The notes under the pieces were generated by a model. That model was not told where the DNA came from. It was given only the letters and a program-made list of their open reading frames with translations, and made no database searches. This document shows, piece by piece, positions 7,876 to 55,062 of a DNA stretch of 58,696 bases. How positions within the stretch are numbered: position 1 is the first letter of the stretch; each line of letters starts with the position of its first letter. A program made the position numbers and the translations under genes. Source of the stretch: an uncultured Gammaproteobacteria bacterium (lineage in GTDB: Bacteria > Pseudomonadota > Gammaproteobacteria > Steroidobacterales > Rariloculaceae); assembly GCA_964518995.1 (NCBI GenBank), contig CAZFJU010000002.1:1-58696 (forward strand), in the 5' to 3' direction.

Positions 7876-7877
7876 TC

Positions 7878-15836: not shown

Positions 15837-15939
15837 GCCGCTGTTACAGCCGACGAACTGACGGTCGGCTTTCGATCCGCCCCATAGAGCTTCGCGCTTG
15901 CCCGACACCGCGCGATCGCACTTACACGCCAGGACGGTC

Positions 15940-17325: not shown

Positions 17326-17391
17326 CGATGCTGCGGCTCTACCGTAAAGTCTTACCGGTCAGTGGTCGACTGGCACGCCTGGCAAGCGTCA

Positions 17392-18534: not shown

Positions 18535-18642
18535 ATTACGTAACGCTGTATAGCCTCGCTATCCATCCGTTACTTCCTTCGTGCTTGCCATGAGTTTGTA
18601 AGCCGGAGTTGGCAGTCGGTGCATCGAGCTTAAGGGGAGCAC

Positions 18643-21860: not shown

Positions 21861-22315
21861 CCGCCGGGCAGCCGCGGCGCGTAGAACGGCATCTCCACCA
21901 AAACGCTCCGCTCGGTGCTGAGCGGCGCTTCGCCCATCGGCAAACCGTTGAACCACAGCATATACGCCAATATTGATACGGTATCTTGCCGCGACAGCTT
22001 TCCGGGTTGGCTCGGCGGCATCGCGTCGATGCGCGCGGCAAGCGCCCACAGGGTTTCGCCGTCCCAGACGGCGGTGAACTGAGGCCCAGCGAGCGGCGGC
22101 GCCTGATCGAGCCCGGCCATGTCTTCACCGTGGCAAGAAAGGCATTGCGCATAGTAAAGCGCCTGACCGCGCAGCGCTTGCTCCTCCGTGTAGGCGCCGT
22201 TCAATACCGAAGGCGCCGCCGTAGCTTGGCTGCCGGCGTCAGTGATCGTCATCGCCAAGCAGGCCGCACCAAGCACCGCAAACGAGCGGGCGGGCGCGGC
22301 AGCATCGAAGCTCAC
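21857..22315 (-). CDS. c-type cytochrome (probable electron acceptor of the PQQ dehydrogenase)
   Basis: Heme motif CLSCHG in YAQCLSCHGEDMAGLDQAPPLAG. Hydrophobic N-terminus FAVLGAACLAMT. Translationally coupled to the PQQ gene. Start uncertain; GTG 22315 was chosen so that it does not overlap the upstream MBL gene. Confidence 0.7.
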   Translation of the reverse strand: MSFDAAAPARSFAVLGAACLAMTITDAGSQATAAPSVLNGAYTEEQALRGQALYYAQCLSCHGEDMAGLDQAPPLAGPQFTAVWDGETLWALAARIDAMPPSQPGKLSRQDTVSILAYMLWFNGLPMGEAPLSTERSVLVEMPFYAPRLPGG

Positions 22316-33031: not shown

Positions 33032-35920
33032 TCAGAATAGGAAGCGCACTCCGGCCGTATACTGCCGCCCTATCGTGTCGAACGTCGCAGCGTTCGTATA
33101 GCTCGAGCCGAAGAAGTCCCCAAAGGCGCCCGGCGCTAGCGGGGGCTTTCGGTCGAACAGATTCCTTACGTTGAGGAACATCCTCCATTCGCCGCCCGTC
33201 GCCTCGAGCGTATAGCCCAGGCGGAGATTTGTTGACGTAAAGGAGCCGACACGATTATCAAAGATATCAACTCCGCTCACCCAGTCGTTATTGCGCACGG
33301 TCGAGCCGATGTAGTTTTGTTGAACGTAGACACTCCAAGGCCCGGTGTTGTAAGTCGCGCCTACATTCGCGCGCCATCGCGGTCGAACTATCTCCCGCGC
33401 CTGATCGTCGAGCACGCCATCGATAGTCGTCGAGGATTCCTGCAAGTTACTGATGAGACCGCGAATCCCCAAGCTGCCTCGAGCCAACGCCCTGCGATAC
33501 GACGTCTCGATATCGAAACCTCGGACGCGAGCCTCGTCGAGATTCAGAAATGTATTGAGCACAAGAGTGATAGGACCTAGGGAATCATCCGGGTTCGGCA
33601 CACCGCGGGTAATCCGATCGCATAGCGTGGCAATATCGTCCTCGAAGCAGCCGTCGATCGTGCGGTCCACTCCGAGCGTATTGATCGCACCATCGACCTT
33701 TACATCGAAGTAATCGACGGAGACACCGAGGCCGGGGATCGCGGACGGTTGGTAAACCACCCCGAAAACTCGCGTGTTGGCTTCTTCCGGATCGACGTTT
33801 GAATTGCCTCCCGAGATCTGCGTCGCGGCATAAGTCGGCTCGCCCGCCATCCATCGATCCGTTACGTTCGTGCCGGCGACAGACGTATCGAAGCGTTCTG
33901 ACAGGGAGCCCGCGCGCACGTCGCGGGACCACGTTGCGCGCAGCCGCACGTCCTCGGTCACCGACCAATCAAGACCTCCTTTCCAAGCTTGCACGCCTCC
34001 GCTGCCGGAGTAGTCCGCATATCGCCAAGCAAGGCTGAGATCGAGAGCCTCCGCACCGCGGACGCCAGAGATCAGCGGGATCAACGTTTCGATGAAAGCT
34101 TCTCGGACGTCGAAGCTGCCGTCGACGACATTTGCACTCGCCCGTTCGAACCGACTCACGCAGCCTCGATATGCGGGCGGGACGCCCAAGTAGCCGGCGG
34201 CGGCCGATTCGGCCGCCCCTCTAAAGCAGTTAGGACCGCCCGTGTCGACGCTCGGAGAGATGCTGCTCTTTTGGCGGAACGCGTCGCTGCGATATGAGGC
34301 GCCGAGAGCGATCGACACCGGCCCCGTTGCTCGGTTGACGAGCAGATCTCGGTCGATCGCGACTTCCGCGAAACGCTGATCGACCTTCTGCAGCAGCGCG
34401 AGCGATCCGCCGATCGGCTGCAGATCCTCAGTGCCTTGGATGTAGGCACGCGCTGCGGGAGAAACGGAGCCCTCTCCGAAGAAGTTGCCGGGAACGCAGC
34501 CGTCATCCGGCACAGTCAGAGTGGAACGGCAGATAATCTCCCCGGTATCCGGGTGCCGGACGGCATCCAGCGAGCGGTAGATTCTGTCGATCCGGACGGT
34601 GTTTCTGAGCTCCACCGCTTGATCGTTCCAACCATACTGATAGTAGGCATTCATTCGCCAGTTGCCCACGTCGCCTTCGATGCCCGTAGTGAACGAGTAC
34701 GTATCGTTCTCCATCACGTGCATCGAGCCGCCGATGTCGCTTCCGCCAGAACGCGCAAACGAGAAGCTGGCTTCGCCCGCATCGATCATCTGTTGGCGAA
34801 GACTCTCGTCGAGATATGCGTTATCGACATAGATCGTGCCGATCCATCCGCCATGCATCATGTTCGGGCCCTTGTCACGCTCGACGCGACCGCGCCCGTA
34901 GACCCCCTGGATGAACCACTCGAGATTACCCAGATCGTACTTCAAATGAGCGAAAAGGCTGCTGCGGTCGTTAGCGGTCATCGGCCAGTAGCGATGAGCC
35001 ATATCGGCGCCGCTTCCGCCTGATTGCACGCTTCCTGAGACGATCGCTCCGTCGACAAATGGCGCGTAGGTTCCGCCCGGCAGAAACTCGGTGCCCGCAA
35101 GCACTCCACTCGTCGCGAGCCCGCCGAAGGTATAGCTGCGCGTGCGTAGATTTGGCAGGTAGATCCGCTGAGGGTGTGTTCCGGAAGGATCGCCAGCGCT
35201 CCAGTCCGGATTAGTGAGCATCCCCCAATCTCGATACCACCCGTACTCGTCCCAGTCTTGAATCCCCTCATGCTCATAGTGGTCGGCGGCTACCACGACA
35301 TGCGCACGCTCGCCGATCGCCGTGCCGCCGGCTGCCGAAATCTTGTAGTTTTCGCCCTGCCCGCGGCTTGTTGCTCCGCCCTGCAGGTTGACCTCGAGAC
35401 CCTCAAATTCCGTGTCGAGTATGAAGTTCACGACACCGGCCACGGCATCCGAGCCATACGCTGCGGAGGCGCCGCCGGTGACAGTCTCGACCCGTGAAAT
35501 GATGCCCTCGGGAAAAATGTTTACGTCAGTCGTGCCAAGCCGCGTCGACGGGACGATTCGGCGATTGTTGAGCAGAGTCAGGGTGCGATTGGCACCCAGC
35601 CCTCTCAGGTTCAGAATACTGGCGCCTGCGTCTCCGCTCCAGGTGTTCACTGTGGTCGGTGTAGTGTTGCCAAGAAACTGCGGCAACTGATCGAGCGCAT
35701 CGATTAAAGTCGTCGGCGCCATGTACGAGAGCTCTTCGGCGGTTACCGTCGTGACCGGTGTCGGAGTCGTCATGCCGGAGCGCTGAATCCTCGACCCGGT
35801 CACTTGAACCTCTTCGATGGGACCGCTTGATTGCAGCCCCTCCTGAGATTGCGCGCCGACCGAGAGTCCACTTGCCGCCAAGCCCACAAACATTGCAAGC
35901 ATGCTGCCGGAGTGTTTCAT
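33032..35920 (-). CDS. TonB-dependent receptor
   Basis: Signal MKHSGSMLAMFVGLAASGLSVGA. Plug EEVQVTGSRIQRSGMTTPTPVTTVTAEEL, NLRGLGANRTLTLLNNRR, VETVTGGASAAYGSDAVAGVVNFIL. Ends YTAGVRFLF. Confidence 0.9.
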   Translation of the reverse strand: MKHSGSMLAMFVGLAASGLSVGAQSQEGLQSSGPIEEVQVTGSRIQRSGMTTPTPVTTVTAEELSYMAPTTLIDALDQLPQFLGNTTPTTVNTWSGDAGASILNLRGLGANRTLTLLNNRRIVPSTRLGTTDVNIFPEGIISRVETVTGGASAAYGSDAVAGVVNFILDTEFEGLEVNLQGGATSRGQGENYKISAAGGTAIGERAHVVVAADHYEHEGIQDWDEYGWYRDWGMLTNPDWSAGDPSGTHPQRIYLPNLRTRSYTFGGLATSGVLAGTEFLPGGTYAPFVDGAIVSGSVQSGGSGADMAHRYWPMTANDRSSLFAHLKYDLGNLEWFIQGVYGRGRVERDKGPNMMHGGWIGTIYVDNAYLDESLRQQMIDAGEASFSFARSGGSDIGGSMHVMENDTYSFTTGIEGDVGNWRMNAYYQYGWNDQAVELRNTVRIDRIYRSLDAVRHPDTGEIICRSTLTVPDDGCVPGNFFGEGSVSPAARAYIQGTEDLQPIGGSLALLQKVDQRFAEVAIDRDLLVNRATGPVSIALGASYRSDAFRQKSSISPSVDTGGPNCFRGAAESAAAGYLGVPPAYRGCVSRFERASANVVDGSFDVREAFIETLIPLISGVRGAEALDLSLAWRYADYSGSGGVQAWKGGLDWSVTEDVRLRATWSRDVRAGSLSERFDTSVAGTNVTDRWMAGEPTYAATQISGGNSNVDPEEANTRVFGVVYQPSAIPGLGVSVDYFDVKVDGAINTLGVDRTIDGCFEDDIATLCDRITRGVPNPDDSLGPITLVLNTFLNLDEARVRGFDIETSYRRALARGSLGIRGLISNLQESSTTIDGVLDDQAREIVRPRWRANVGATYNTGPWSVYVQQNYIGSTVRNNDWVSGVDIFDNRVGSFTSTNLRLGYTLEATGGEWRMFLNVRNLFDRKPPLAPGAFGDFFGSSYTNAATFDTIGRQYTAGVRFLF

Positions 35921-35972: not shown

Positions 35973-35990
35973 CTGACATTGCCCTGTCAG
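35973..35990. promoter_or_regulatory. CTGACA-N6-TGTCAG inverted repeat, also readable as a Pho-box-like TGACA-N6-TGTCA with 11-bp period
   Basis: The sequence cCTGACATTGCCCTGTCAGc lies 53 bp upstream of the minus-strand TonB receptor start (35920), in the divergent region shared with phoX. Confidence 0.35.
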
Positions 35991-36161: not shown

Positions 36162-36243
36162 ACGAAGAAGTCGCGGAGCGCATCATAGCCGTCGCGTATA
36201 CACTTCCGACTTGGCCCAGGCACCGGGATCGCGGGGAGGATCA

Positions 36244-38058
36244 ATGAATAATCACGACGACGGCACAAGTAACAGATCAGCTAATCGTCCCTTCGAGGAC
36301 GTCTTATTGTCGTACCGGACTCGGCGCGACGTGCTACGCGGCGGGCTCGCGTCCGCCGCGGCGGCATTCCTCACGTCTTCTCCGGTGCTATCGCCGGCCG
36401 CTGAGAAGCCGCGAGGCAAGGCTCGCCCCGGCCTGATGGACTTCGAGCCGCTCCCGGTCGCGGGCGGCGGCGGCAGGACGCCGAGAATCGCTCCGGACTA
36501 CCAGATGCAGATCCTCATTCCGTGGGGAGAGCGGATCAATCCCTCCTCCGGCCCGGATTTCGCTTGGCCGCCGAGCGCCGCCGATCAGGAGAAGCAAGTC
36601 GGCATTGGGCACGACGGCATGTGGTTCTTCCCTCTCGACGAAAGCAGCGAGCGCGGCCTTCTCGTGCTGAACCACGAATACGGCACGAACAACCACATCC
36701 TCGGCCGCCCGCCTGAGAGCCTCGACGACGTGCGCGTCTCACAGCGCGCACACGGCATCTCGGTCGTGGAGCTCGTGAAGGACGACGGCGGCTGGCAGCA
36801 CGTCGACAGCCGGTACGCGCGGCGCATCCACGCAAACACGCCGGTCGAATTCAGCGGGCCTGCGGCCGATTCGCCGCTCCTGCGCAATCCGGCCAACAAT
36901 CCGCCCGCCGGCACGCTGAACAACTGCGCCAACGGTCATACGCCGTGGGGCACCTACCTCACGTGCGAGGAAAACGTGCACTTCTACTTCGGCGGCGAAG
37001 GGTTCACGCCGAACGCGCGCCAGGAACGCTACGGTTTCACCTCGCGCTGGACCGCCTTCCACGGCTGGAGCCGTTTCGATTCGCGCTTCAATCTCATGGA
37101 CGCGGACTACGTGAACGAGCCCAATCGCTTCGGCTGGATCGTCGAGATCGACCCCCTCGCACCGGACGCGAAACCGATCAAGCGCACGGCGCTCGGGCGC
37201 TTCCGGCACGAAGGCTGCGCCATTACCGTCGGAGAGGACGACCGCGTTGTCGGTTACATGGGTGACGACGAAGGTTTTGAGTACATCTACAAGTACGTCT
37301 CGGAGAAGAGTTGGAAGGCCCTACGCGACGAGGGCCGCAGCCCGCTGGATCACGGCAAGCTCTATGCCGCGAAATTCAACGATGACGGCAGCGGCGAATG
37401 GCTCGAGCTGACGATAGAAAACCCCTTGCTTGCCGAGGAGTTTGAAGATGAGGCGGAAGTCTTGCTGTTCGCACGACGGGCCGCGGATCTGGTCGGCGCG
37501 ACACCGATGGATCGGCCCGAGTGGACCACCGTCGGCCCCGACGAGTACGTGTATTGCTCGCTCACCAATAATATCCAGCGTAATGCGGCGGACGCCGCGA
37601 ATCCGACCGCACCGAATGTGCACGGCCACATCATCCGCTGGCGCGATGAGCGCCACCACGTCGGCACCAAGTTCGAGTGGGACATTTTCCTGATCGCCGA
37701 GGAGACCCACGGCACGGAAGAATCGTTCTCGTCTCCGGACGGGCTTTGGGCCGATCCCGACGGCCGCTTGTTCATCCAAACCGACGGCAGCGGCCAGGCG
37801 GACGGGCTCAATGATCAGATGCTGGTCGCCGATACCGAGAGCGGCGAGATCAAACGCCTGTTCGAGGGTGTACCCGGGTGCGAGGTGACGGGGATTGCCG
37901 TGACGCCGGATCGCCGCACGATGTTCATCAACGTTCAGCATCCGGGAAATGGGAACCCGGAGCAGACGAGCTTTCCCGAAGCATTCGATGGCGTCACGAT
38001 TCCTCGCGACGCGACAATCGCGATCAGCCGTAAGGACGGAGCGGTGATCGGCTCATGA
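36244..38058 (+). CDS. phoX: PhoX-family alkaline phosphatase (DUF839), Tat signal
   Basis: GGGGAGGA lies upstream of ATG 36244. Tat motif RRDVLRGGLASAAAAFL. PhoX blocks LVLNHEYGTN, NNCANGHTPWGTYLTCEEN, NRFGWIVEIDP, GRFRHEGCAI, MDRPEWTTV, CSLTNN, MFINVQHPG. Confidence 0.9.
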   Translation: MNNHDDGTSNRSANRPFEDVLLSYRTRRDVLRGGLASAAAAFLTSSPVLSPAAEKPRGKARPGLMDFEPLPVAGGGGRTPRIAPDYQMQILIPWGERINPSSGPDFAWPPSAADQEKQVGIGHDGMWFFPLDESSERGLLVLNHEYGTNNHILGRPPESLDDVRVSQRAHGISVVELVKDDGGWQHVDSRYARRIHANTPVEFSGPAADSPLLRNPANNPPAGTLNNCANGHTPWGTYLTCEENVHFYFGGEGFTPNARQERYGFTSRWTAFHGWSRFDSRFNLMDADYVNEPNRFGWIVEIDPLAPDAKPIKRTALGRFRHEGCAITVGEDDRVVGYMGDDEGFEYIYKYVSEKSWKALRDEGRSPLDHGKLYAAKFNDDGSGEWLELTIENPLLAEEFEDEAEVLLFARRAADLVGATPMDRPEWTTVGPDEYVYCSLTNNIQRNAADAANPTAPNVHGHIIRWRDERHHVGTKFEWDIFLIAEETHGTEESFSSPDGLWADPDGRLFIQTDGSGQADGLNDQMLVADTESGEIKRLFEGVPGCEVTGIAVTPDRRTMFINVQHPGNGNPEQTSFPEAFDGVTIPRDATIAISRKDGAVIGS

Positions 38059-38064
38059 GCAGTA

Positions 38065-38090
38065 GAGCCCCCGGCTTGCGCCGGGGGCTC
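38065..38090. terminator. bidirectional stem-loop terminator between convergent phoX and G8 gene
   Basis: GAGCCCCCGGC (38065..38075), loop TTGC, GCCGGGGGCTC (38080..38090): a perfect 11-bp GC-rich stem. It lies 7 nt after the phoX stop and 26 nt after the G8 gene stop. There is no clear U-tract. Confidence 0.6.
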
Positions 38091-38115
38091 TAGTTCAGTC
38101 CGCAGGTATTGAATT

Positions 38116-40674
38116 TTACCTGAGCACTTCGATGCGGGTTCCTACTCCACCGAAATTGCCAGGGCTGCCGGCACTGCCGGCATCTTCTACGACATCGACC
38201 ACGAGCTTGACCCAAAGCGTGTCGCCGTCGGCGTAGTACGCGGTGTGACTCGCCTCGCGCAGCGCAGCCAGGCTGCTTTGCTCTGCGCCCGCAGCGGCCT
38301 TGGTGAACCCGGGCAGCTCGAAGATTACCCAGGAGCCCTCGTCCATCTGGCTCAGGGACAGCGGCAAGGATTCTCTTTTTGTATTGACCGTAACTTCGGC
38401 TCCGCTGCGGATCGTGGTTTGCCCCCGGAACTCGAAATCCCGGCCGTTACGGCTGAGAATGACCGGCTCAGCATCCCGGTTAGCGCCGAATCCGAAACCA
38501 CCGCCGAGACTGAGGCGACCGAAATCACCCTGACACACAGCAGCGCCCCATGTTGGCTTGATCTCACAGGCTTCTTCGTCGGACGCGATGCCGTTGTCGA
38601 TGACAATGTACGAATCCGGCACACCGCTGATTGAGCCGTCCAAGTCGTGAATGGCCGCGGTCAGATACGCTCCACTGCCCCCAAAGTCGTTAGCCCACTT
38701 TTCCAACCGCTCCGGGAAGTGCACCGGCTTGGCGTTGACGAACTTCAGGCCTTTAGCGGCGTTCTCGGTGCTCATCCCAAAGCTGGTATAGAGCAGATAC
38801 GAGAGCGCTCCTGCCTCGCGAGTGTCGTTGTCTTCGTAATTCACGAAGGTGGTGTTCTCGATCGTATGCACGAAGTCGTAGTACTCGTAGCCACGAATCG
38901 GGAAATCCGCGATCGCTTTCGGCAAGCTGCGGCCGTACGCGATTTCCTCCGGCGTTTTGGGGTTACCGATGTTGTCGGTTTCACCCACGAACAGCGAGTC
39001 AATGACCTTTGACGTGAAGGGGTCACGACCGATCGAGCCGGAAGCAAACGTGTAGCCGATAGCGTTGTCGGCGAGCTTCAGATTCCGGAATACCTTCATC
39101 TCGCCGCGGGCCCAGACGCCGCCATTGCGGTTCTTGTAGGCCGTGAAATCCTCGATGACCGACTCAATCGACTTGCTGTTCGGATCAGCGGGGTTCTCAC
39201 GTGCGATATGCGAGCTGCCGGTCACACCGAAAGTGTTATCGGCCGCGAAATTGCGGTCGAACATCAGGCCATCGAAGTTCGAGTGGGCGACGTTGCCCCT
39301 GAACTCCCCTTGCGGCATTCGACGCGGCCAGGTGTTCGCGCTGATCTCCGTGCCCTCGAACGCGCCGTTCGGATGCTCCGGCAACGAGAACCAGAAGCCG
39401 GTCGAGTCGGAACCTGCGGCTACGTTGTCGATGTAATCGTTGGACGGGTTGGTGATCCAGAACGTCGCGGCCGTGTTGTCCGAAGGAATCAGGATATGTT
39501 CGGATCTCTGGCCTGCGAAGCTACCCGGGTCGGAGGGTATCCCGAGGTTGGTCGGCACACACTCCATGGTCGGATGGCACTTGGTTTGGATACCGAGATT
39601 GCGAACGAGCTGGTTACCCTGCTCGATGCCGTCTTCCATGAAGAAGCAGTGCCCGACGGTGTTGTAGGTGACGTTGTTTTCGACACGCAGATTATCCGTG
39701 CCGTGAATGGTCACGCAGCGGTTGTAGGTGTTGTGAATCGCAGAGTTTCTGATGTACTGCCCCGTCACGTCGCCGTTCAGATGCCAGTGGATCGGGTAGC
39801 GGGCGAGCTCCAGGTGCTGCCCCATTCGGTACAACTCGACGCCGGACACATTCATCGTGCTTCCCGCCATCGCCATGATATGCCCGCCGACATAGGTCTC
39901 TTCGGCGTCGGCGGAAGCCCGAACTTTGATATTGCGCGTCAGCAAGCCGACCTCACCGCGTTGGTCGACGTCGAACGTGATCTCACCGAAATGCATGTAC
40001 TCGAGCGGCTGATCGAGCGTCAGCGTATTGCCGTCGATGGCCGCGATGTGGCGCGTCTCCGCTTGCCTCGGATCGAAATCCGTCGAAGCCAGGACGATCT
40101 GGTCACCGACTCGCCAGCCGCTGGCATCTAGAACCTCGATCTTGGTGCTGCCGGCCTCGGCAGTTTCGGCCAGCTTGGTCCACGCGTTCTCCCGATCACC
40201 GTGCAGGCTCAGCACCCCGCCGACAATCATGATCCCACGGTCACCCATTCCCATGACGTTCTCGTCGGGGACGTTGTTGGTCAGGGTGATCGTCGCGTTG
40301 CGCGTATGAGGATTGTTTTCGCTCCCGGCATGCAGCTCCCCACGCAGCAGAATCCACTCGGTGGTGAGCTCGACGTCCTTATCGTCGGCAAAGCTGAGCG
40401 TGCCGTTGAGATTCAAACCGTGCAGCGCCGGCGGATCCACATCGAGGACGATATCCATCCCCTCGTCGATTGTGACGATGTCGCCGGCCTCCGGCAGTAC
40501 GCCACCGGACCAAGTGGATGGATCGGACCACAGTCCGCCTTTGACGGCCGAGTAGCCCTGCTCTTGGGCCTCGACGTGAGCATGCTCCTGTGCTTGGGCG
40601 CCAGCAGCCCCGCTGACGGCAACACCGGCCGCTATAAGCCATGACGAAAAGAACGGACGATGGAGTATTCGCAT
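38116..40674 (-). CDS. secreted G8-domain / right-handed beta-helix protein (CEMIP/TMEM2-like architecture), copy 1
   Basis: Signal MRILHRPFFSSWLIAAGVAVSGAAGAQA. G8 block GGLWSDPSTWSGGVLPEAGDIVTIDEGMDIVLDVDPPALHGLNLNGTLSFAD..ELTTEWILLRGELHAG. Beta-helix (PbH1-like) turns ARYPIHWHLNGDVTGQYIRNSAIHNTYNRCVTIHGTDNLRVENNVTYNTVGHCFFMEDGIEQGN. Confidence 0.85.
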   Translation of the reverse strand: MRILHRPFFSSWLIAAGVAVSGAAGAQAQEHAHVEAQEQGYSAVKGGLWSDPSTWSGGVLPEAGDIVTIDEGMDIVLDVDPPALHGLNLNGTLSFADDKDVELTTEWILLRGELHAGSENNPHTRNATITLTNNVPDENVMGMGDRGIMIVGGVLSLHGDRENAWTKLAETAEAGSTKIEVLDASGWRVGDQIVLASTDFDPRQAETRHIAAIDGNTLTLDQPLEYMHFGEITFDVDQRGEVGLLTRNIKVRASADAEETYVGGHIMAMAGSTMNVSGVELYRMGQHLELARYPIHWHLNGDVTGQYIRNSAIHNTYNRCVTIHGTDNLRVENNVTYNTVGHCFFMEDGIEQGNQLVRNLGIQTKCHPTMECVPTNLGIPSDPGSFAGQRSEHILIPSDNTAATFWITNPSNDYIDNVAAGSDSTGFWFSLPEHPNGAFEGTEISANTWPRRMPQGEFRGNVAHSNFDGLMFDRNFAADNTFGVTGSSHIARENPADPNSKSIESVIEDFTAYKNRNGGVWARGEMKVFRNLKLADNAIGYTFASGSIGRDPFTSKVIDSLFVGETDNIGNPKTPEEIAYGRSLPKAIADFPIRGYEYYDFVHTIENTTFVNYEDNDTREAGALSYLLYTSFGMSTENAAKGLKFVNAKPVHFPERLEKWANDFGGSGAYLTAAIHDLDGSISGVPDSYIVIDNGIASDEEACEIKPTWGAAVCQGDFGRLSLGGGFGFGANRDAEPVILSRNGRDFEFRGQTTIRSGAEVTVNTKRESLPLSLSQMDEGSWVIFELPGFTKAAAGAEQSSLAALREASHTAYYADGDTLWVKLVVDVVEDAGSAGSPGNFGGVGTRIEVLR

Positions 40675-40745
40675 GAAATCAGCCTCCCGGCACTCGGCTT
40701 TCGGAGTCCCGTACTTGAGCGAGTCAGAACGGCGCGAGCGATGAG

Positions 40746-40785
40746 CTTATATCAGAAGCATGCAGTTGGGCGTTAAGAATTCTTA
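40746..40785 (-). promoter_or_regulatory. candidate extended -10 promoter plus 12-bp perfect palindrome upstream of G8 copy 1
   Basis: On the gene strand, TGATATAAG (40754..40746) matches the extended -10 pattern TGnTATAAT. TAAGAATTCTTA (40774..40785) is a perfect AT-rich palindrome in GC-rich DNA, 100 bp upstream of the start codon. Both elements recur upstream of G8 copy 2. Confidence 0.45.
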
Positions 40786-40888
40786 TATGGCCGGCCGCCC
40801 CGGCGAGCCCGCAGCCGCGGCACGGCTCGATCGTCGGTCCGGCCACGATCCGCTATAATCGGACCGCTCGAAGTTCAGGACCAGCGTC

Positions 40889-41311
40889 TTGCGCGATCCA
40901 AACCCCAAATTTCTCGCCAGTTTCATGCTCGCCGTCGGAATGACCGTCGGGCAGGTCGCACTGGCCGATTCCGACCAGCTGGCCGCCAAAACCGCCGCGC
41001 CGAGCTCGACGCCCGCGCGTCTGACCGGCCCGCAGGTCTACAACAACGTCTGTATCGCCTGTCACTCCCCGCCCGGCATCGGCGGTGCACCGGCGCTCGG
41101 CGACGCCAATGCCTGGGCCGCGCGTATCGGCCAAGGCATGGACACGCTCATCGGTCATGCGCTGCGCGGATTGTCCGGCAGCACGGGCATCATGCCGCGC
41201 AAGGGCGGGCGGCTCGACCTCTCCGATGAGGAGGTGATCGCGGCGGTCGAGTACATGGTCGCGCAGGTCGCCGATCGCGACGATCGAGCCGCCCAGAAGG
41301 CAGCTCGATGA
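40889..41311 (+). CDS. cytochrome c5-like class I c-type cytochrome
   Basis: CIACHS heme motif, then GIGGAPALGDANAWAARIGQGMDTLIGHALRGL..GIMPRKGG..LSDEEVIAAVEYM. Signal MRDPNPKFLASFMLAVGMTVGQVALA (TTG start). TATAAT at 40854..40859 lies upstream. Confidence 0.8.
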   Translation: MRDPNPKFLASFMLAVGMTVGQVALADSDQLAAKTAAPSSTPARLTGPQVYNNVCIACHSPPGIGGAPALGDANAWAARIGQGMDTLIGHALRGLSGSTGIMPRKGGRLDLSDEEVIAAVEYMVAQVADRDDRAAQKAAR

Positions 41312-42712: not shown

Positions 42713-45007
42713 CTACTTTTCGAGAAGCAACAGAACGGAGCGCGGATTCACTACGTAAGTCGGCCCGTCGAGCGCTTCCTCTTGACCTGGTTCGACGATG
42801 TTGTCTCGGTCTTCCATCCACGCGTCGGTGTCGGCGACCCGAAACCAGCGCCTACCGTGGAGATTCGCGGGCAGCGTCGCGATCACGTCTTCCGACCAGC
42901 CGTTATACGCCACGTAAATCGAGGTCGCGCTGTCGCCGAGCTCCGTGCCATCGATGCGGTACGAGAGAAAATGATTATCGGTGTTGTCGAGGTACGCGGC
43001 GTCCGCCTCGGCGCCTGAGCTCATGAGCCAGGTGATGTCCTTGAGTCCGTTGCCATTACCGTCCGCGCCCGTGAAGTAGTCCGCCACTCGCAGCGCTGGA
43101 TGCGTGTTGCGAAACGCGAATAGCTTCTTGGCGTAGCGATGAAACTGCGCGAACGTGACGGCGTTCGACCAGTCGAGGTAGTTCTTGTCCGAGTCGAGGT
43201 TGTACGGGTTGTTGTTGCCGAACTGCGTGCGGTACATCTCGTCGCCGCCCGTGATCATCGGCACGCCGGCAGAAAGCATCAGGAACGCGAGCGCCGTCCG
43301 TGCGGCCTGCCGTTGCGCGACCGGGTCGCCGCCGTGGTCCCATTCGATGTTATTGTCGCTGCCGCCATCCGACGGGCCGAACGGCCACGGCTGCTGGTTC
43401 TGCTTTGAACTGTACGAGTACAAGTCGCGCAGCGAGTAGCCGTCGTGCGCCACGATGAAATTCACTGAATGCCACGGCTTGCGGCCGTCGTCTTGATAGA
43501 GGTCTGAGGAGCCGGCGAAGCGGCGCGCGAGCTCGGCGGGCGGAACATGAGCCACGCTGAGGCGATTCTGTGCGACGCGGAAGGTATCGCGATACTTGTC
43601 GTTCCACTCAGCCCAGCCGCTCGGGAATTGGCCGACTTGGTAAGTGCCGGTGCCTATCGCCCACGGCTCAGCGATCAAGTCCACGCCCTCGCCTCCGTCG
43701 GCTGGGCGCGCAGGCAGCTCGCTGACGGCGCGGTTCAGGATGTTTTGAGGCTCGAACTTGTTGAAGTAGAAGCACGCCTCGAGGCACGCGTTGCCGAGAA
43801 CGGACGCGAGGTCGAAGCGATAACCGTCGACGCCGAGCACGTCCTTCCAGTAGCTCAGCGAGTCGATAACGAGCTGGCGCACGCGCGGATGCGCTGTGTT
43901 CAAGTTCGGGCCCACGCCGTTGTTGTCAATGTAGAAGCGGCGGTCGGGTGCGAGCTCATAGTAGGCCGCGTTATCAAGCCCACGAAACGATAGCAGACGC
44001 GCGCGCTGACCGTTGTTCGCCGACGGGCCCTCACCCGTGTGGTTGTAGACGACGTCGATATAGACCTTGATGCCTTCGTCGTGGAAGGCGCGCGTCATCG
44101 CCTGGAATTCCCGCGTGGGTCCGCCGGGCGAGGCGTCCGCAGCGTAGCGACGATCGGGCGCGAAGTAGTTGATTGGATCGTAGCCCCAGTAGTTGTCGCC
44201 GCTTGTCGAAAGCTGGATATCGTTGTGCTCGTTCTGGAATTCCTGAACCGGCAAAAACTCGACGGCCGTGACTCCGAGGGCCTTCAGGTAGGCAGCTTTC
44301 CGTGCCGCGCCGGCGTAAGTACCGCGAAGGTCGGCCGGCACGCTCGGGTCGTTCAAGGTTAGCCCGCGCACATGCACCTCATAGATGATCTCGTCTTTGA
44401 AGGCTCGTGCAGGTCGGTTCGTCGTGTCGGCGGGCTCGGGCGCGAGCACAATGCCCTTCGGCGCGTGCGCGCCCGTATCGGTATTGCGCCGTGCGCCGGA
44501 TTCGGTTATCGCGTCGCTCGGCTGGCCCGGTCGACGCAGGTCGTGGCTGACCTCCAACGCGTACGGGTCGAGGAGCAGTTTGTTGGGATTAAAGCGGTTG
44601 CCCTGGTCATCCACGTCGGCGACGAAGCCTAGAGCCGCGCCGGGGCGCCACTCGGGATCGTAAATCCAATTCGGGCCCCATGCTCGATACCCGTAATAGA
44701 TCGTTCCGCCAATCCCGGCAGACTCAAGATCCGAGATGGACACGCTCGCGGTCCAGATCCCCGCTTCCGGATCGGGAATCAGCACGAGCTGCGCCTTCTC
44801 CGTTTCGCCGAACGGGCTCGCATAGATCCAGGCCTCGAGCCGGGTGGCCCGAGCGGAGTAGACACGAAACGTCACCGAGTCGCCGGCGGGGCCCAGCGTC
44901 GCGCCCAAGCCATCCGGACCGAACCCATTCGCGAGCGGCGCGACCAAGAAGTAGATAGACGCAACCCACAAGCACGACGGCAGAGCAAGCGAACCGTTCT
45001 TACGCAT
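42713..45007 (-). CDS. secreted isoamylase (GH13 glycogen-debranching type, Pseudomonas amyloderamosa isoamylase-like)
   Basis: Signal MRKNGSLALPSCLWVASIYFLVAPLANG. N-terminal CBM48-type VTFRVYSARATRLEAWIY. YYGYRAWGPNW, NRFNPNKLLLDPYA, YEVHVRGLT, LGVTAVEFLPVQEF, NYWGYDPINYFAPDRRYA, IKVYIDVVYNHTGEG, VDGYRFDLASVLG, LIAEPWAIG, NFIVAHDGYSL, IYVAYNGWS. Confidence 0.92.
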   Translation of the reverse strand: MRKNGSLALPSCLWVASIYFLVAPLANGFGPDGLGATLGPAGDSVTFRVYSARATRLEAWIYASPFGETEKAQLVLIPDPEAGIWTASVSISDLESAGIGGTIYYGYRAWGPNWIYDPEWRPGAALGFVADVDDQGNRFNPNKLLLDPYALEVSHDLRRPGQPSDAITESGARRNTDTGAHAPKGIVLAPEPADTTNRPARAFKDEIIYEVHVRGLTLNDPSVPADLRGTYAGAARKAAYLKALGVTAVEFLPVQEFQNEHNDIQLSTSGDNYWGYDPINYFAPDRRYAADASPGGPTREFQAMTRAFHDEGIKVYIDVVYNHTGEGPSANNGQRARLLSFRGLDNAAYYELAPDRRFYIDNNGVGPNLNTAHPRVRQLVIDSLSYWKDVLGVDGYRFDLASVLGNACLEACFYFNKFEPQNILNRAVSELPARPADGGEGVDLIAEPWAIGTGTYQVGQFPSGWAEWNDKYRDTFRVAQNRLSVAHVPPAELARRFAGSSDLYQDDGRKPWHSVNFIVAHDGYSLRDLYSYSSKQNQQPWPFGPSDGGSDNNIEWDHGGDPVAQRQAARTALAFLMLSAGVPMITGGDEMYRTQFGNNNPYNLDSDKNYLDWSNAVTFAQFHRYAKKLFAFRNTHPALRVADYFTGADGNGNGLKDITWLMSSGAEADAAYLDNTDNHFLSYRIDGTELGDSATSIYVAYNGWSEDVIATLPANLHGRRWFRVADTDAWMEDRDNIVEPGQEEALDGPTYVVNPRSVLLLLEK

Positions 45008-45059
45008 CGGCCAACGCTCCTACATCTTCGAGTCCCGCCCGACGCCGCGCAGCCGCCTG

Positions 45060-46310: not shown

Positions 46311-46334
46311 TTCGTTTCCTCGACGCGCGGCGTT

Positions 46335-47468: not shown

Positions 47469-47471
47469 GGG

Positions 47472-49268: not shown

Positions 49269-49277
49269 GTTCGCCCT

Positions 49278-52358: not shown

Positions 52359-54938
52359 TTATCTGCTGACGTCGATGCTGGTCCTACCCCCCGGACCACC
52401 CGAGCCCGGACCGCCTGGTCCGTCGAGGACCGGCGGACCGCCGACATCGGCGACCACCAGCTTGACCCAAAGGGACTCGTCATCGCGGTAATAGGACGTC
52501 TCACTGGCGTCGCGCAGCGCATCGAGGCTGCTTTGCTTCACGCCCTGGGCCGCGGTGGTGAACTGGGGAAACTCGAAAATCACGAACGAACCCTTGCCCA
52601 TTTCCTGTAGGGAAAGAGTCAGCGTATCCCGGGCCGTCTCGACCCTGACCTCGGCGCCGCTGCCGATCGTGTTGCCCCCGGTGTACTCGAACCGCCTGCC
52701 GTTGCGTTGGAGGATGATCGGATTGGTGATGGGGCCAGCCTGGAACCCACTGAAGTCACCGGCGATGCTCAGGCGGCCCATATCCCCCGTGCAGATCGCT
52801 GCATTCCAGGTCGGCTTCATCTCGCAGGTTTCTTCGTCGGATGCGATGCCATTGTCGATGACGATGTAGGCGCCGGGAGTGCCAGTGACCGAGCCGTCCA
52901 GGTCGCGGAACGCCGCACTCTTGTAGGCAGCACTGCGCCCCCAGTCAGACGCCCAGCGGCGCTGCAGCGGCGGGAAGCTGACCGGCTTGGCGTTCTCGAA
53001 TTTCATGCCCTTCACCGAGTTCTCGGTGCTCATGCCGAAGCTGGTGAATAACAGATAAGAGAGCGCGCCCGCGTCGCGAAGCTCGTTAGACTCGTAGTTC
53101 ACGAACGTGACGTTTTCCACCTCGTGATGAAAATCATAGAACTCGTAACCGCGGATCGGGAAATCAGCATACCCGGCCGGCATCGGCAGACTGCGACCGT
53201 ACGCGATTTCCTCCGGCGTCGTCGGATTACCGATGTTGTCGCTCTCCCCTACAAACAGCGAGTCGACGACCCGTGACGTGTAGGGTGCGATGCCCGGAGC
53301 ACCGGACGCATGGGTAAAGCCGATGCCGTTATCCGCCAGTTTCAAGTTGGTGTACAGATGCATCTCACCGCGGCCCCAAACAGCGCCATTGCGGTTTTTG
53401 TAGCCGGTGAAATCGTCGAAGTGCCCCACCAGCACCTCGCTGCTCGTATCAGCAGGATCGGCGTAGGTGATCAGGTTGGGACCGGCGATACCGAAGGTGC
53501 CGTCCGGTCTTTGGCCGCGATCGAGCATCAGGCCATCGAAATTGGAGTGCGCGGTATTGCCGCTGAACTCCCGCAGCCTCGACCGTCCGGGCCATGTATT
53601 GGCGCTGATCTCCGTTCCTTCGAACGCCCCGACCGGATGCGTAGGGATCGCGAACCAGAAACCGATCTGGTCCGAACCCGCCGCCACGTTGTCGCGGAAG
53701 ATATTGTCCGGGTGCGTGATCCAGAACGTGGAGACCGTGTTGTCCGAAGGGATCAGGATATGCTCGGAGGCTTGGCCTTCCGTCGACTGATAAGCCAGAA
53801 CCAGGTTCGTCGGCTCACAAGGCAGCGTCGGATGACACTTGGTCTGAATCCCCAAGTTGCGCACCACCTGGTTGCCCGTCTCGATGCCGTCCTCCATGAA
53901 GAAGCAGTGCCCGACCGTGTTGTACGTGACGTTGTTCTCGACCAGCAGGTTGTCCGTGCCGTGAATCGTCACGCAGCGGCTGTAGGTGTCGTGAATCGCC
54001 GAGTTCTTGATGTACTGCCCGCTCGCGTCGCCCATCAAATGCCAGTGGATCGGATAACGGGCGAGCTCCAGGTGCTGACCCATTCGAGTCAATTGGATAC
54101 CGGACACATTCATCGTGCTTCCGGCCATCGCCATGATATGCCCGCCAAACCACGTCTCTTCGGCATCGGCGGACGCCTGAACTTTGATGTTACGCGTCAG
54201 CAAGCCGACTTCGCCGCGTTGATCGACTCCGAACGTGATCGCGCCGAAATGCATGTACTCGAGCGGCTGATCCAGCGTGATCACATTACCGCTGATCTCG
54301 GCGATGTGCCGCCTCTCCGCCTGCCTCGGGTTGAAATCCGTCGAGGCCAGAACGATCTGGTCACCGACTCGCCACTCGCTCGCGTCGAGCACTTCGATAG
54401 CCGTGCTGCCGGCTTCGGCGGTTCGAGCGAGCTTGGTCCAGGCGTTCTCCCGATCGCCGTGCAGGTTCAAGGTCCCGCCGACAATCAGGATCCCGCGGTC
54501 ACCCATGCCATTGATGTTTTCGCCAGGGACATTATCGGTCAGCGTGATCGTCGCATGACCTGTGTGAGGGGCCCCTTCACTGCCGATCTGCAGCTCGCCG
54601 CGCAGCAGAATCCACTCGGTGGTGAGCTCGACATCCTGGTCGTCGGCGAAGCTGAGCCTGCCGTTCACGTTCATGCCGTAAAGCGCCGGCGGGCTGACGT
54701 CGAGGACCACGTCCAGGCCCTCCGCGATGGTAACGATGTCACCCTCCGCCGGCACCGCGCCGCCCGACCAAATGGACGAATCCGACCAAAGCCCGCCGCG
54801 GATCGCCGAAGCGCCTTGCTCCTGCGCTGCCGCGGGCTCGTGCGCCGCGGCGTGCTGCTGCGCCTGGGCGCCCGCGCTGACCGCGAAGCAGGCGGGAACG
54901 AGCAATGAAAGCAGAAACAAGCGATTGTGTATTCGCAT
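52359..54938 (-). CDS. secreted G8-domain / right-handed beta-helix protein, copy 2 (paralog of 38116..40674)
   Basis: ATG 54938 gives signal MRIHNRLFLLSLLVPACFAVSAGAQA. GGLWSDSSIWSGGAVPAEGDIVTIAEGLDVVLDVSPPALYGMNVNGRLSFAD, ARYPIHWHLMGDASGQYIKNSAIHDTYSRCVTIHGTDNLLVENNVTYNTVGHCFFMEDGIETGN. Colinear with copy 1 over essentially the full length. Confidence 0.85.
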   Translation of the reverse strand: MRIHNRLFLLSLLVPACFAVSAGAQAQQHAAAHEPAAAQEQGASAIRGGLWSDSSIWSGGAVPAEGDIVTIAEGLDVVLDVSPPALYGMNVNGRLSFADDQDVELTTEWILLRGELQIGSEGAPHTGHATITLTDNVPGENINGMGDRGILIVGGTLNLHGDRENAWTKLARTAEAGSTAIEVLDASEWRVGDQIVLASTDFNPRQAERRHIAEISGNVITLDQPLEYMHFGAITFGVDQRGEVGLLTRNIKVQASADAEETWFGGHIMAMAGSTMNVSGIQLTRMGQHLELARYPIHWHLMGDASGQYIKNSAIHDTYSRCVTIHGTDNLLVENNVTYNTVGHCFFMEDGIETGNQVVRNLGIQTKCHPTLPCEPTNLVLAYQSTEGQASEHILIPSDNTVSTFWITHPDNIFRDNVAAGSDQIGFWFAIPTHPVGAFEGTEISANTWPGRSRLREFSGNTAHSNFDGLMLDRGQRPDGTFGIAGPNLITYADPADTSSEVLVGHFDDFTGYKNRNGAVWGRGEMHLYTNLKLADNGIGFTHASGAPGIAPYTSRVVDSLFVGESDNIGNPTTPEEIAYGRSLPMPAGYADFPIRGYEFYDFHHEVENVTFVNYESNELRDAGALSYLLFTSFGMSTENSVKGMKFENAKPVSFPPLQRRWASDWGRSAAYKSAAFRDLDGSVTGTPGAYIVIDNGIASDEETCEMKPTWNAAICTGDMGRLSIAGDFSGFQAGPITNPIILQRNGRRFEYTGGNTIGSGAEVRVETARDTLTLSLQEMGKGSFVIFEFPQFTTAAQGVKQSSLDALRDASETSYYRDDESLWVKLVVADVGGPPVLDGPGGPGSGGPGGRTSIDVSR

Positions 54939-55017
54939 GGACTTAGATCCCCCGGGATACTCGACTTCTGGATTCCGGCATTTGGGCAGCGCGGACCGCA
55001 AGATTACCAGCCTGCAA

Positions 55018-55062
55018 ACTATATCAGGCAAGCCGGTCAGAATCGGCCATTAAGAATTCTTG
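55018..55062 (-). promoter_or_regulatory. candidate extended -10 promoter plus AAGAATTCTT palindrome upstream of G8 copy 2
   Basis: On the gene strand, TGATATAGT (55026..55018). TAAGAATTCTTG lies at 55051..55062 (10-bp perfect palindrome core), 113 bp upstream of ATG 54938. Same order as upstream of copy 1. Confidence 0.45.

What the first reader, a model, noticed from the sequence alone, without database searches (positions are those of the whole stretch)
38116..40674. Bacterial G8 / beta-helix protein with the architecture of the animal hyaluronan depolymerases CEMIP/TMEM2, embedded among TonB receptors and PhoX
The 852-aa secreted protein starts with a clear G8 domain and continues into parallel beta-helix repeats (RYPIHWHL..NRCVTIHGTDNLRVENNVTYNTVGHCFFMEDG). 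The G8 domain is best known from CEMIP/KIAA1199, TMEM2 and fibrocystin. As far as I know, bacterial members are essentially uncharacterised. The genomic setting is two convergent large TonB-dependent receptors and PhoX immediately upstream, with a second copy divergent from a third TonB receptor. It resembles proteobacterial carbohydrate-utilisation loci in which a secreted depolymerase feeds an outer-membrane importer. The substrate is unknown. It could be a host or algal glycosaminoglycan-like polymer, a phosphoglycan (given PhoX), or the cell's own capsule.
Basis: partly seen in the sequence, partly recalled or inferred. Interest (0 to 1): 0.65.

Follow-up and report, generated by a model that had tools for sequence, protein, structure and literature searches.

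The report
Bacterial CEMIP-like enzyme with dedicated cytochrome
This gene encodes a bacterial relative of the human hyaluronan-degrading proteins CEMIP/TMEM2 that keeps their conserved core site; it is not tied to the neighbouring nutrient receptors, but is paired with its own small electron-carrying cytochrome, which offers a simple system for working out how this poorly understood protein family works.

Summary
ORF 38116-40674 (-) encodes an 852-aa Sec-exported protein with a G8 domain and a CEMIP-type beta-helix. It is homologous to human TMEM2 over about 650 residues, and the fold model agrees. A 71%-identical paralog lies at 52359-54938.

- The protein is the family "core" and lacks both GG/lectin domains, which carry all known activity-determining residues of CEMIP/TMEM2.
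- The TonB-receptor/PhoX setting is local coincidence. PhoX is convergent behind a bidirectional terminator. Across 102 homologous genes a receptor is an immediate neighbour once, and PhoX never recurs.
- The one conserved partner is a divergently transcribed class I cytochrome c (40889-41311). It accompanies 24 of 45 non-alphaproteobacterial gene arrays, and 21 of 23 close homologs of the cytochrome sit next to a G8 gene, amid diverse flanking genes.

A 12-residue signature (Y293, H296, H298, R319, H324, H342, E347, D348, E351, D399, W406, W428) is conserved from bacteria to human TMEM2. It is lost as a block in the second modules of fibrocystin-like giants, which marks a candidate active site. 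Fusions to carbohydrate-binding modules elsewhere in the family point to glycan substrates.

Best reading: an exported glycan-active enzyme working with a dedicated electron carrier. The substrate and the chemistry are unknown.

The parts
38116..40674 (-). Gene for the 852-aa exported CEMIP/TMEM2-type core protein (G8 cap, beta-helix and C-terminal beta-sandwich region)
   Evidence: ORF and translation. Pfam G8 and CEMIP_beta-hel. TMEM2 homology at E=2.7e-92. Model and Foldseek match.
40591..40674 (-). Signal peptide (aa 1-28, MRILHRPFFSSWLIAAGVAVSGAAGAQA|QE), followed by a disordered His-rich tail (QEHAH)
   Evidence: Read from the sequence. Family N-termini compared. Residues 1-39 have pLDDT below 50. 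The cleavage site is inferred, not predicted with a dedicated tool.
40168..40515 (-). G8 domain (aa 54-169), the N-terminal rungs of the beta-helix
   Evidence: Pfam PF10162, E=4.4e-28. In TMEM2 the G8 domain is part of the continuous beta-helix (PMC10206443).
39271..39891 (-). CEMIP-type beta-helix domain (aa 262-468)
   Evidence: Pfam PF24606, E=3.7e-81. The central block aligns closely with TMEM2.
39391..39798 (-). Candidate active-site signature: Y293, H296, H298, R319, H324, H342, E347, D348, E351, D399, W406, W428
   Evidence: Eleven of the twelve are at least 93% conserved in 71 sequences of median 37% identity. D348 is the exception: at least 97% in the close family and about 90% in the diverse set. 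All twelve are present in human TMEM2. They are lost together in the second modules of giant relatives, while fold residues are kept.
38119..39270 (-). C-terminal half (aa 469-852): further beta-helix rungs, then a beta-sandwich
   Evidence: Aligns to TMEM2 up to aa 721. Strands 738-851 in the model. No Pfam hit, including CEMIP_X.
40675..40888 (.). 214-bp divergent promoter region shared by the G8 gene and the cytochrome gene. It holds a TATAAT -10 box for the cytochrome gene, the palindrome TAAGAATTCTTA and a CTGATATAAGC block.
   Evidence: Sequence. Blocks conserved across 16 orthologous intergenic regions. The same two boxes lie upstream of the paralog. No regulator was assigned.
40889..41311 (+). 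Dedicated class I (c5/c-555/c551-type) monohaem cytochrome c, 140 aa, with signal peptide, CIACH haem motif and MPRKGG Met-ligand motif
   Evidence: Translation. Pfam Cytochrome_CBB3 and Cytochrom_C above their cut-offs. PDB relatives c-555, c551, ScyA and c5. Conserved pairing with G8 genes.
38064..38091 (.). Bidirectional intrinsic terminator hairpin (AGAGCCCCCGGC-ttgc-GCCGGGGGCTCT) between the convergent stop codons of PhoX and the G8 gene
   Evidence: Read from the sequence. The consensus terminator scan, which requires a T-tract, did not list it.
52359..54938 (-). Paralog, 859 aa and 71% identical, with the same domains and the full signature. It has no cytochrome partner and is divergent from TonB receptor 55407-58430.
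   Evidence: Pfam. Start codon and N-terminus equal database protein P0070. Identity. No cytochrome remnant nearby.

Best explanation
The gene encodes a Sec-exported 'core' member of the CEMIP/TMEM2 protein family. It has a right-handed beta-helix whose first rungs are the G8 domain, followed by a beta-sandwich, and it lacks the animal GG/lectin domains.

It carries the complete conserved site signature of the family: three carboxylates, four histidines, Arg, Tyr and two Trp. From sequence periodicity these residues appear to lie on the outward PB1 face of consecutive rungs. The protein is therefore most likely a catalytically competent enzyme acting on a carbohydrate polymer.

It is a stand-alone transcription unit, not part of a TonB-receptor/PhoX utilisation locus. 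It forms a two-gene divergent module with a dedicated periplasmic class I cytochrome c. This implies that in these Gammaproteobacteria the enzyme's function is coupled to electron transfer, with the cytochrome either donating electrons to the beta-helix protein or accepting them from it.

Shown: the homology and fold, the absence of GG domains, the all-or-none signature, the lack of conserved receptor or PhoX linkage, and the conserved reciprocal cytochrome pairing.

Inferred: catalytic activity, a glycan substrate, periplasmic co-location, and any redox step.
For: - Domains and homology.
- The family is very large and strongly conserved. There are 9,498 representative clusters, and 238 columns are at least 97% identical among 101 alpha- and gammaproteobacterial sequences.
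- Signature: 51 deep invariants, all also present in TMEM2. Twelve residues behave as an all-or-none set in two-module giants, while E206, H228, E241, Q286 and H464 are always kept.
- Glycan direction: fusions to PA14, NPCBM, malectin, CBM96, GLEYA, dockerin, a T9SS tail and CWB2. The nearest non-TMEM2 folds are capsule and phage depolymerases.
- Cytochrome partner, forward test: a haem c protein sits divergently within 600 bp of 27 of 93 G8 genes and in 24 of 45 non-alpha arrays.
- Two unrelated cytochrome types (about 20% identical) pair with different G8 clades, and three loci carry two pairs each.
- Independent contigs with proper gene calls confirm the pairing.
- Cytochrome partner, reciprocal test: 21 of 23 loci with a cytochrome at least 56% identical have the divergent G8 gene, against 1 of 17 for more distant cytochromes.
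- The gene beyond the cytochrome falls into 23 different families in 33 pairs, so the pair is not kept merely by block synteny.
- Stand-alone unit in the window: terminator hairpin and convergent neighbours on both sides.
Against: - No activity is known for any bacterial member, and the catalytic status of the animal proteins is itself disputed. Purified human TMEM2 ectodomain was inactive (PMC10206443).
- Alphaproteobacterial members (0 of 32 arrays) and the window's own paralog lack the cytochrome, so it is not universally required, or it is encoded elsewhere.
- No cytochrome fusion was seen among 31 longer relatives.
- No recognised cofactor motif is present.
- The rung-stacking geometry of the signature comes from sequence periodicity and the model's secondary structure, not from coordinates.
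- Part of the co-divergence signal (rho 0.72) reflects species phylogeny.
- If the protein is periplasmic, the accessible substrates are limited; whether it is secreted further is unknown.
Confidence: 0.5

Rival explanations
1. One reading: a secreted depolymerase that feeds the neighbouring TonB-dependent receptors in a proteobacterial carbohydrate-utilisation locus, possibly acting on a phosphoglycan because PhoX is adjacent.
For: Three TonB receptors and PhoX lie within 9 kb, and the paralog is divergent from a receptor. Family-level fusions to carbohydrate-binding modules exist. On a Croceibacterium plasmid two G8 genes bracket a DUF6152-TonB receptor-MarR operon.
Against: The gene is convergent with PhoX behind a terminator, and PhoX separates it from the receptors. 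A receptor is an immediate neighbour for 1 of 102 G8 genes, PhoX recurs in 0 of 77 other loci, and receptor density in the flanks is low and flat. No recurrent CAZyme, transporter or regulator appears in 268 flanking ORFs. The best Pho-box-like site lies between PhoX and its own divergent receptor, not upstream of the G8 gene. A receptor lies within 2.5 kb of a DUF6152 gene in only 2 of 15 DUF6152-containing loci.
Confidence: 0.07
2. A conventional cofactor-free polysaccharide hydrolase or Ca2+-dependent lyase. In this reading the cytochrome is a co-regulated bystander, for example respiration tuned to the same environmental cue, with no electron exchange.
For: The signature composition (three carboxylates, His, Arg, Tyr, Trp) resembles the active centres of beta-helix glycosidases and lyases (established knowledge of GH28 and PL1/PL6). 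TMEM2 activity is reported to need calcium (PMC10474455). Alphaproteobacterial members and the paralog function without an adjacent cytochrome. No cytochrome fusions were found.
Against: The cytochrome subfamily occurs almost only next to G8 genes (21 of 23). A second, unrelated cytochrome type was recruited to another G8 clade. The pair persists amid diverse flanks. That degree of reciprocity is unusual for a bystander.
Confidence: 0.25
3. A non-catalytic beta-helix protein: an adhesin, a glycan-binding scaffold, or a maturation factor for a periplasmic metalloprotein in the manner of NosD.
For: Purified TMEM2 showed no activity or hyaluronan binding (PMC10206443). Fibrocystin-type relatives are regarded as non-enzymatic. 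The beta-helix accessory protein NosD is a precedent (established knowledge).
Against: Conservation of polar residues is extreme across phyla, and their all-or-none loss in degenerate modules is the pattern of an active site. There is no ABC-transporter partner as NosD has. The protein has no repeat or anchor features of adhesins.
Confidence: 0.1

Closest known systems
Human/mouse TMEM2 (CEMIP2) and CEMIP (KIAA1199/HYBID); structure 8c6i
   Same: G8 domain and CEMIP-type beta-helix. About 650 residues align (E=2.7e-92), and the fold matches at TM 0.75. All 51 deep invariants are shared, including the signature, whose TMEM2 equivalents are Y547, H550, H552, R580, H585, H603, E608, D609 and E612. 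The Cys pair C320/C343 equals TMEM2 C581/C604. The two long loops that cover the mid-helix groove in TMEM2 have counterparts at about aa 366-400 and 474-494 (PMC10206443).
   Different: 852 aa against about 1,360-1,380. It has no GG-1 or GG-2 lectin-like domains and lacks the small beta-sandwich insert, and there is no transmembrane anchor. It is bacterial and Sec-exported. It is paired with a cytochrome c, and the family forms tandem paralog arrays. Hyaluronan is an unlikely substrate, because the residues shown to control hyaluronan degradation lie in the missing GG-1 domain (PMC12423501).
Fibrocystin/PKHD1-like giant proteins with two G8/beta-helix modules
   Same: Their first module carries the same twelve-residue signature and the same fold residues.
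   Different: They are 2,000-4,600 aa multi-domain proteins. Their second module has lost the signature. They are not known as enzymes.
Beta-helix polysaccharide depolymerases (Klebsiella K1 capsule lyase 7w1c, phage tailspikes, GH110, GH28, chondroitinase B)
   Same: Right-handed parallel beta-helix, with a polar and aromatic cluster on the helix surface. Relatives carry the same kinds of accessory carbohydrate-binding modules.
   Different: Only a generic fold resemblance (TM 0.1-0.26, 7-11% identity). No sequence-profile match. The catalytic motifs of those families are not present in the same order.
Periplasmic enzyme plus dedicated class I cytochrome c gene pairs, such as quinoprotein ethanol dehydrogenase ExaA with cytochrome c550 ExaB, or copper nitrite reductase with cytochrome c551 (2zon)
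   Same: An exported enzyme is encoded beside a small monohaem cytochrome c that occurs almost only with it. The cytochrome is homologous to c551, c5 and ScyA electron shuttles.
   Different: The enzyme here has no known redox cofactor or motif and belongs to a family thought of as glycan depolymerases. The direction of any electron flow is unknown. The comparison with ExaA/ExaB rests on my own knowledge, not on a tool result.

Membership tests
CEMIP/TMEM2 family (Pfam G8 + CEMIP_beta-hel) | G8 domain | tested here: met
   PF10162, E=4.4e-28, aa 54-169, 98.1 bits against a cut-off of 22.9.
CEMIP/TMEM2 family (Pfam G8 + CEMIP_beta-hel) | CEMIP-type beta-helix, and overall fold like the TMEM2 ectodomain | tested here: met
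   PF24606, E=3.7e-81. phmmer against 8c6i E=2.7e-92. Foldseek E=3e-41, TM 0.75. Profile against PDB gives only 8c6i, E=1.9e-200.
CEMIP/TMEM2 family (Pfam G8 + CEMIP_beta-hel) | Conserved polar signature on the beta-helix (YPxHxH, RCxxxH, GHCFFxEDGxE, D, W, W) | tested here: met
   All present in both window copies. Conserved in diverse relatives and in TMEM2.
Animal CEMIP/TMEM2 hyaluronan-depolymerising architecture | GG-1 and GG-2 (ILEI/PANDER-like lectin) domains, with GG-1 required for hyaluronan degradation | tested here: not met
   No PF15711 hit at E<=0.01. The alignment jumps from 8c6i chain position 167 to 334, which skips lectin-like domain 1. Only 1 of 31 longer relatives has ILEI. 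The role of GG-1 is from PMC10206443 and PMC12423501.
Animal CEMIP/TMEM2 hyaluronan-depolymerising architecture | Domain X (PF24605) after the beta-helix | tested here: inconclusive
   No Pfam hit for aa 469-852. The sequence nevertheless aligns to TMEM2 up to aa 721, and a C-terminal beta-sandwich is predicted.
Animal CEMIP/TMEM2 hyaluronan-depolymerising architecture | Hyaluronan depolymerisation | not testable with these tools
   Needs biochemistry.
TonB-receptor-centred carbohydrate utilisation locus (proteobacterial CUT locus / PUL-like) | Enzyme co-transcribed or co-oriented with the receptor, plus an inner-membrane transporter and a regulator | tested here: not met
   The gene is monocistronic, convergent with PhoX across a terminator hairpin, and separated from the receptors. 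No sugar transporter or regulator lies in the unit.
TonB-receptor-centred carbohydrate utilisation locus (proteobacterial CUT locus / PUL-like) | Enzyme-receptor linkage conserved in related genomes | tested here: not met
   A receptor is an immediate neighbour for 1 of 102 G8 genes. There are 18 receptors in 1.49 Mb of flanks. PhoX occurs only in the window. The Pfam census of 268 flanking ORFs agrees.
Periplasmic enzyme + dedicated cytochrome c module | Adjacent class I cytochrome c with haem motif and export signal | tested here: met
   CIACH and MPRKGG motifs and a signal peptide. Pfam above cut-offs. c5/c551/c-555 relatives in the PDB.
Periplasmic enzyme + dedicated cytochrome c module | Pairing conserved in both directions and independent of the flanking genes | tested here: met
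   Forward: 27 of 93 genes and 24 of 45 non-alpha arrays. Reciprocal: 21 of 23. The gene beyond the cytochrome falls into 23 families in 33 pairs. The pairing is absent from Alphaproteobacteria (0 of 32).
Periplasmic enzyme + dedicated cytochrome c module | Redox cofactor or metal centre in the enzyme | not testable with these tools
   No known cofactor motif is present.

The most novel reading that the evidence does not exclude
The CEMIP/TMEM2-type beta-helix may be a redox-dependent metalloenzyme. In this reading its conserved His/Glu cluster (H296, H298, H324, H342, E347, D348, E351, with Met267/Met269 on the rung above) binds a metal that exchanges electrons with the dedicated cytochrome c, and glycan cleavage or modification is oxidative or reductant-activated rather than simple hydrolysis. 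This could also explain why purified animal TMEM2 and CEMIP are inactive outside living cells: an electron donor or cofactor would be missing.
Probability: 0.13. Interest if true: 0.9.

Novelty: new variant of a known kind. Interest (0 to 1): 0.6.

Why it matters
How CEMIP and TMEM2 degrade hyaluronan has been unresolved since 2013. No active site is known, the purified TMEM2 ectodomain was inactive in one study and active in another, and all functional mutations map to an accessory lectin domain.

This work shows that a compact bacterial form of the same core exists in thousands of variants, including in cultured Erythrobacteraceae. It carries a twelve-residue signature that is shared with human TMEM2 and is lost as a block in degenerate modules. 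That gives concrete residues to mutate and a simple protein in which to test for activity.

The conserved, reciprocal pairing with a dedicated cytochrome c is unexpected for a supposed glycosidase. If it reflects function, it points to chemistry that has not been considered for this family.

For bacterial ecology, the family is abundant and multi-copy in sediment and marine Gammaproteobacteria and Erythrobacteraceae, yet it has no assigned role.

Tried and rejected
1. Lipoprotein idea. The conserved Cys in 'LLVPACF' lies inside a Sec signal peptide with Pro at -2, and an AxA|Q cleavage site follows. It is not a lipobox.
2. His-rich mature N-terminus (QEHxH) as a marker of the cytochrome-linked genes. 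There is no association: 5 of 15 against 11 of 36.
3. A named regulator site in the divergent promoter. Conserved blocks exist, but I could not fit sigma-70, sigma-54, Pho, Fur or FNR patterns. A relaxed motif scan was too noisy to use, and the consensus promoter scan found nothing.
4. Riboswitch or leader RNA. No Rfam hit anywhere in the window.
5. A decayed cytochrome gene next to the paralog. None was found.
6. Rescuing the receptor link through DUF6152-receptor operons. DUF6152 occurs in 15 of 75 loci, at variable distance, and a receptor is close to it in only 2.
7. Link to the window's own EPS cluster (6484-19767). It is more than 18 kb away, and no EPS genes recur near G8 genes.
8. Cytochrome domain fusion as Rosetta-stone evidence. 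None was seen in 31 longer relatives or as CxxCH in the 102 G8 proteins.
9. Remote relation to a characterised glycosidase or lyase family. None was found by profile search, and there is no NCBIfam model.
10. A MAFFT run on all 150 representatives timed out. It was repeated with 70 core-length sequences.
Full report
**Observation**

The minus-strand ORF 38116-40674 is real and encodes 852 aa. Pfam assigns a G8 domain (aa 54-169, E=4.4e-28) and a CEMIP-type beta-helix (aa 262-468, E=3.7e-81). An ORF listed as 52359-55031 has the same two domains. Its true start is 54938, which gives the 859-aa database protein P0070, 71% identical to the target.

The N-terminus is a Sec signal peptide. The Cys conserved in relatives lies within the hydrophobic core of the signal and is not a lipobox.

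The only solved relative is the human TMEM2 ectodomain, 8c6i:
- phmmer gives E=2.7e-92.
- A family profile gives E=1.9e-200, with nothing else in the PDB.
- An AlphaFold2 model (pLDDT 80.6, pTM 0.84) matches 8c6i at Foldseek E=3e-41 and TM 0.75. All other beta-helix enzymes score TM 0.1-0.26.

**What differs from the animal proteins**

The TMEM2 alignment jumps from chain position 167 to 334. Adding 82 converts chain positions to residue numbers. This offset is validated because it places the aligned 'HLCGD' cysteine at Cys554, which the structure paper lists as unpaired.

The bacterial protein therefore lacks the small sandwich and lectin-like domain 1 (GG-1). It is also too short to hold GG-2. 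No ILEI/GG Pfam hit appears.

This matters because every residue known to affect hyaluronan degradation by CEMIP or TMEM2 lies in GG-1. No active site has been assigned on the beta-helix (PMC10206443; PMC12423501). The window protein is the family core, not the full architecture.

**Genomic context in the window**

- PhoX (36211-38058, +) and the G8 gene are convergent. Their stop codons are 57 bp apart and flank a perfect 12-bp GC hairpin at 38064-38091.
- The receptors lie beyond PhoX.
- On the other side a 214-bp region separates the G8 start from a divergent 140-aa ORF (40889-41311, +). That ORF is in turn convergent with an S8 peptidase gene.
- The best Pho-box-like site in the window lies between PhoX and its own divergent receptor, at 35973-35990. 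This is weak, because the total count of such sites is at chance level.

The G8 gene is therefore not co-transcribed with PhoX or with any receptor.

**Comparative context**

A scan of reference genomes gave 359 related stretches, of which 76 loci were kept. They come from uncultured Gammaproteobacteria (Rariloculaceae, Steroidobacteraceae, Pseudohongiellaceae) and from cultured and uncultured Erythrobacteraceae.

I called ORFs crudely and clustered them.

- Receptors and PhoX. Among 102 G8 genes, a TonB receptor is an immediate neighbour once, and that case is the window's paralog. There are 18 receptors in 1.49 Mb of flanking DNA, with no peak next to the gene. PhoX occurs only in the window.
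- Pfam census. Among the 268 ORFs at positions ±1 and ±2, one family recurs: cytochrome c, with 22 hits. Receptor domains appear about 5 times, and there is no recurrent CAZyme, transporter or phosphatase.
- Gene arrays. G8 genes often form tandem arrays of up to five copies.

The utilisation-locus reading is not supported.

**The cytochrome partner**

The divergent ORF has a signal peptide, a CIACH haem motif and an MPRKGG methionine-ligand motif. It passes the Pfam cut-offs for cytochrome c. Its solved relatives are the small periplasmic electron shuttles c-555, c551 (the donor to copper nitrite reductase in 2zon), ScyA and c5.

Forward test:
- An HMM of these ORFs finds a divergent copy within 600 bp of 27 of 93 G8 genes.
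- By array, that is 24 of 45 outside the Alphaproteobacteria and 0 of 32 within them.
- A second cytochrome type, c2/c550-like and about 20% identical, occupies the same position next to a different G8 clade. Three loci carry two pairs each.
- Independent metagenome contigs with proper gene calls show the same arrangement.

Reciprocal test:
- Starting from the cytochrome, 21 of 23 informative metagenome loci with a cytochrome at least 56% identical have the divergent G8 gene.
- Only 1 of 17 do so at lower identity.

Flanking genes: the gene beyond the cytochrome falls into 23 families in 33 pairs. The pair is therefore not simply part of a larger inherited block.

This cytochrome subfamily is a dedicated partner of G8 genes. 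The window's paralog has no such partner, and no remnant of one.

**Candidate active site**

The exhaustive search finds 9,498 representative clusters at E<=1e-3.

- Among 70 core-length representatives plus the target (median 37% identity), 51 columns are at least 93% conserved. Six of the protein's 25 histidines and 7 of its 15 tryptophans are among them. All 51 residues are also present in human TMEM2.
- The 27 giant relatives, each with two G8/beta-helix modules, are decisive. Their first modules keep Y293, H296, H298, R319, H324, H342, E347, D348, E351, D399, W406 and W428.
- Their second modules have lost these residues together, while keeping E206, H228, E241, Q286 and H464.
- The first set is therefore a functional-site signature and the second set is fold-determining.

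From strand periodicity and the model's secondary structure, I infer that H298, H324 and E347 stack in one outward column on the PB1 face. H296 would lie in the next column, and the C320-C343 pair (equal to TMEM2 C581-C604) beside it. D348 and E351 would sit in the following turn. This is inference, because I had no coordinates.

The composition fits a beta-helix glycosidase or lyase centre. It is equally compatible with a metal site.

**Substrate class**

In 31 longer relatives the same core is fused to PA14 (6), a T9SS sorting tail (5), CWB2 (3), and NPCBM, malectin, CBM96, GLEYA and dockerin. There are no cytochrome fusions. These are the usual accessory modules of extracellular carbohydrate-active enzymes, so a glycan substrate is the best-supported class. 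The particular glycan is unknown. Hyaluronan is unlikely given the missing GG-1 domain.

**Verdict**

The best explanation (confidence about 0.5) is an exported, probably catalytic, glycan-directed CEMIP-type core enzyme. It forms a two-gene module with a dedicated class I cytochrome c and is unrelated to the adjacent receptors and PhoX.

Rivals:
- A conventional hydrolase or lyase with a bystander cytochrome (0.25).
- A non-catalytic protein (0.1).

The most novel reading not excluded is that the family is redox-dependent, which could also explain the elusive in-vitro activity of the animal proteins (probability about 0.13).

No paper in the searchable library describes bacterial members or the cytochrome pairing. 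[quoted passage not shown] I therefore rate the finding a new variant of a known kind, with interest 0.6.

Noticed in passing
window 6484-19767 (+): An exopolysaccharide or capsule cluster: GT4 glycosyltransferases, an ABC transporter ATPase, a Wza-like Poly_export/SLBB exporter and two polysaccharide pyruvyl transferases (12247-14805, 14802-15836). It is not linked to G8 genes in other genomes.
   Followed up: partly
window 42713-50321 (-): A co-directional run of a GlgX-like isoamylase, two cupin-domain ORFs, a GMC flavoprotein oxidoreductase and a 'gluconate 2-dehydrogenase subunit 3'-like small subunit carrying a glycogen-binding (AMPK1_CBM) domain. It may be a periplasmic oxidative alpha-glucan or glycoside pathway.
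   Followed up: no
window 19752-22049 (-): A PQQ-dependent alcohol/glucose dehydrogenase (E=9e-177). Homologs also lie within 2-8 kb of G8 genes in L017, L018, L028 and L029, and L002 also has a PQQ-domain gene nearby. The association is loose and unexplained.
   Followed up: no
window 35973-35990: The best Pho-box-like site in the window (CTGACATTGCCCTGTCAG, 2 mismatches) lies in the divergent region between TonB receptor 33032-35920 and PhoX. This suggests the two form their own phosphate-regulated pair. The total number of matches is not above chance.
   Followed up: partly
window 40776-40790 and 55048-55062: The palindrome TAAGAATTCTTA and a TGCCTGATATAG-type block occur upstream of both G8 copies, and related boxes occur in orthologous promoters. 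They may be an operator for an unidentified family-specific regulator.
   Followed up: partly
window 40560-40590 (aa 29-39 of the protein) and many homologs: The mature N-terminus starts with a disordered His-rich tail (QEHAH, QEHDH, QEHAAAHEH). If cleavage is after AQA, the first three residues form an X-X-H motif like a copper/nickel-binding ATCUN site. It is not correlated with the presence of the cytochrome.
   Followed up: partly
L002, L004, L008, L009, L016, L027, L031, L036, L082 and others: DUF6152 genes occur within 10 kb of G8 genes in 15 of 75 loci, at variable distance. These are small exported proteins whose mature N-terminus begins His-His-Ser. On the Croceibacterium atlanticum plasmid two of them, a hypothetical gene, a TonB receptor and a MarR regulator sit between two G8 genes.
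   Followed up: partly
L081 7920-9636; L008 4813-5829; L024 4529-5389: A ferritin-like (PF12902) gene accompanies the cytochrome beside one G8 clade. A DUF8021 gene (about 300 aa, exported) lies next to G8 genes in about 11 loci, sometimes in the same orientation. The functions of both are unknown.
   Followed up: no
L007, L073, L039, L008, L024, L081: Tandem arrays of three to five G8 paralogs, 55-70% identical to each other, all keeping the full site signature.
   Followed up: partly
plasmid hits H2-H5: G8 proteins 29-33% identical to the target are annotated on replicons of the archaeon Haloferax mediterranei, Vitreoscilla filiformis and a Planctomyces strain. The core family therefore reaches beyond Proteobacteria and into Archaea.
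   Followed up: no
window 202-3819 (+) and 3823-4725 (+): A 1,205-aa ORF and a 300-aa ORF at the start of the window have no Pfam match at E<=1e-4.
   Followed up: no
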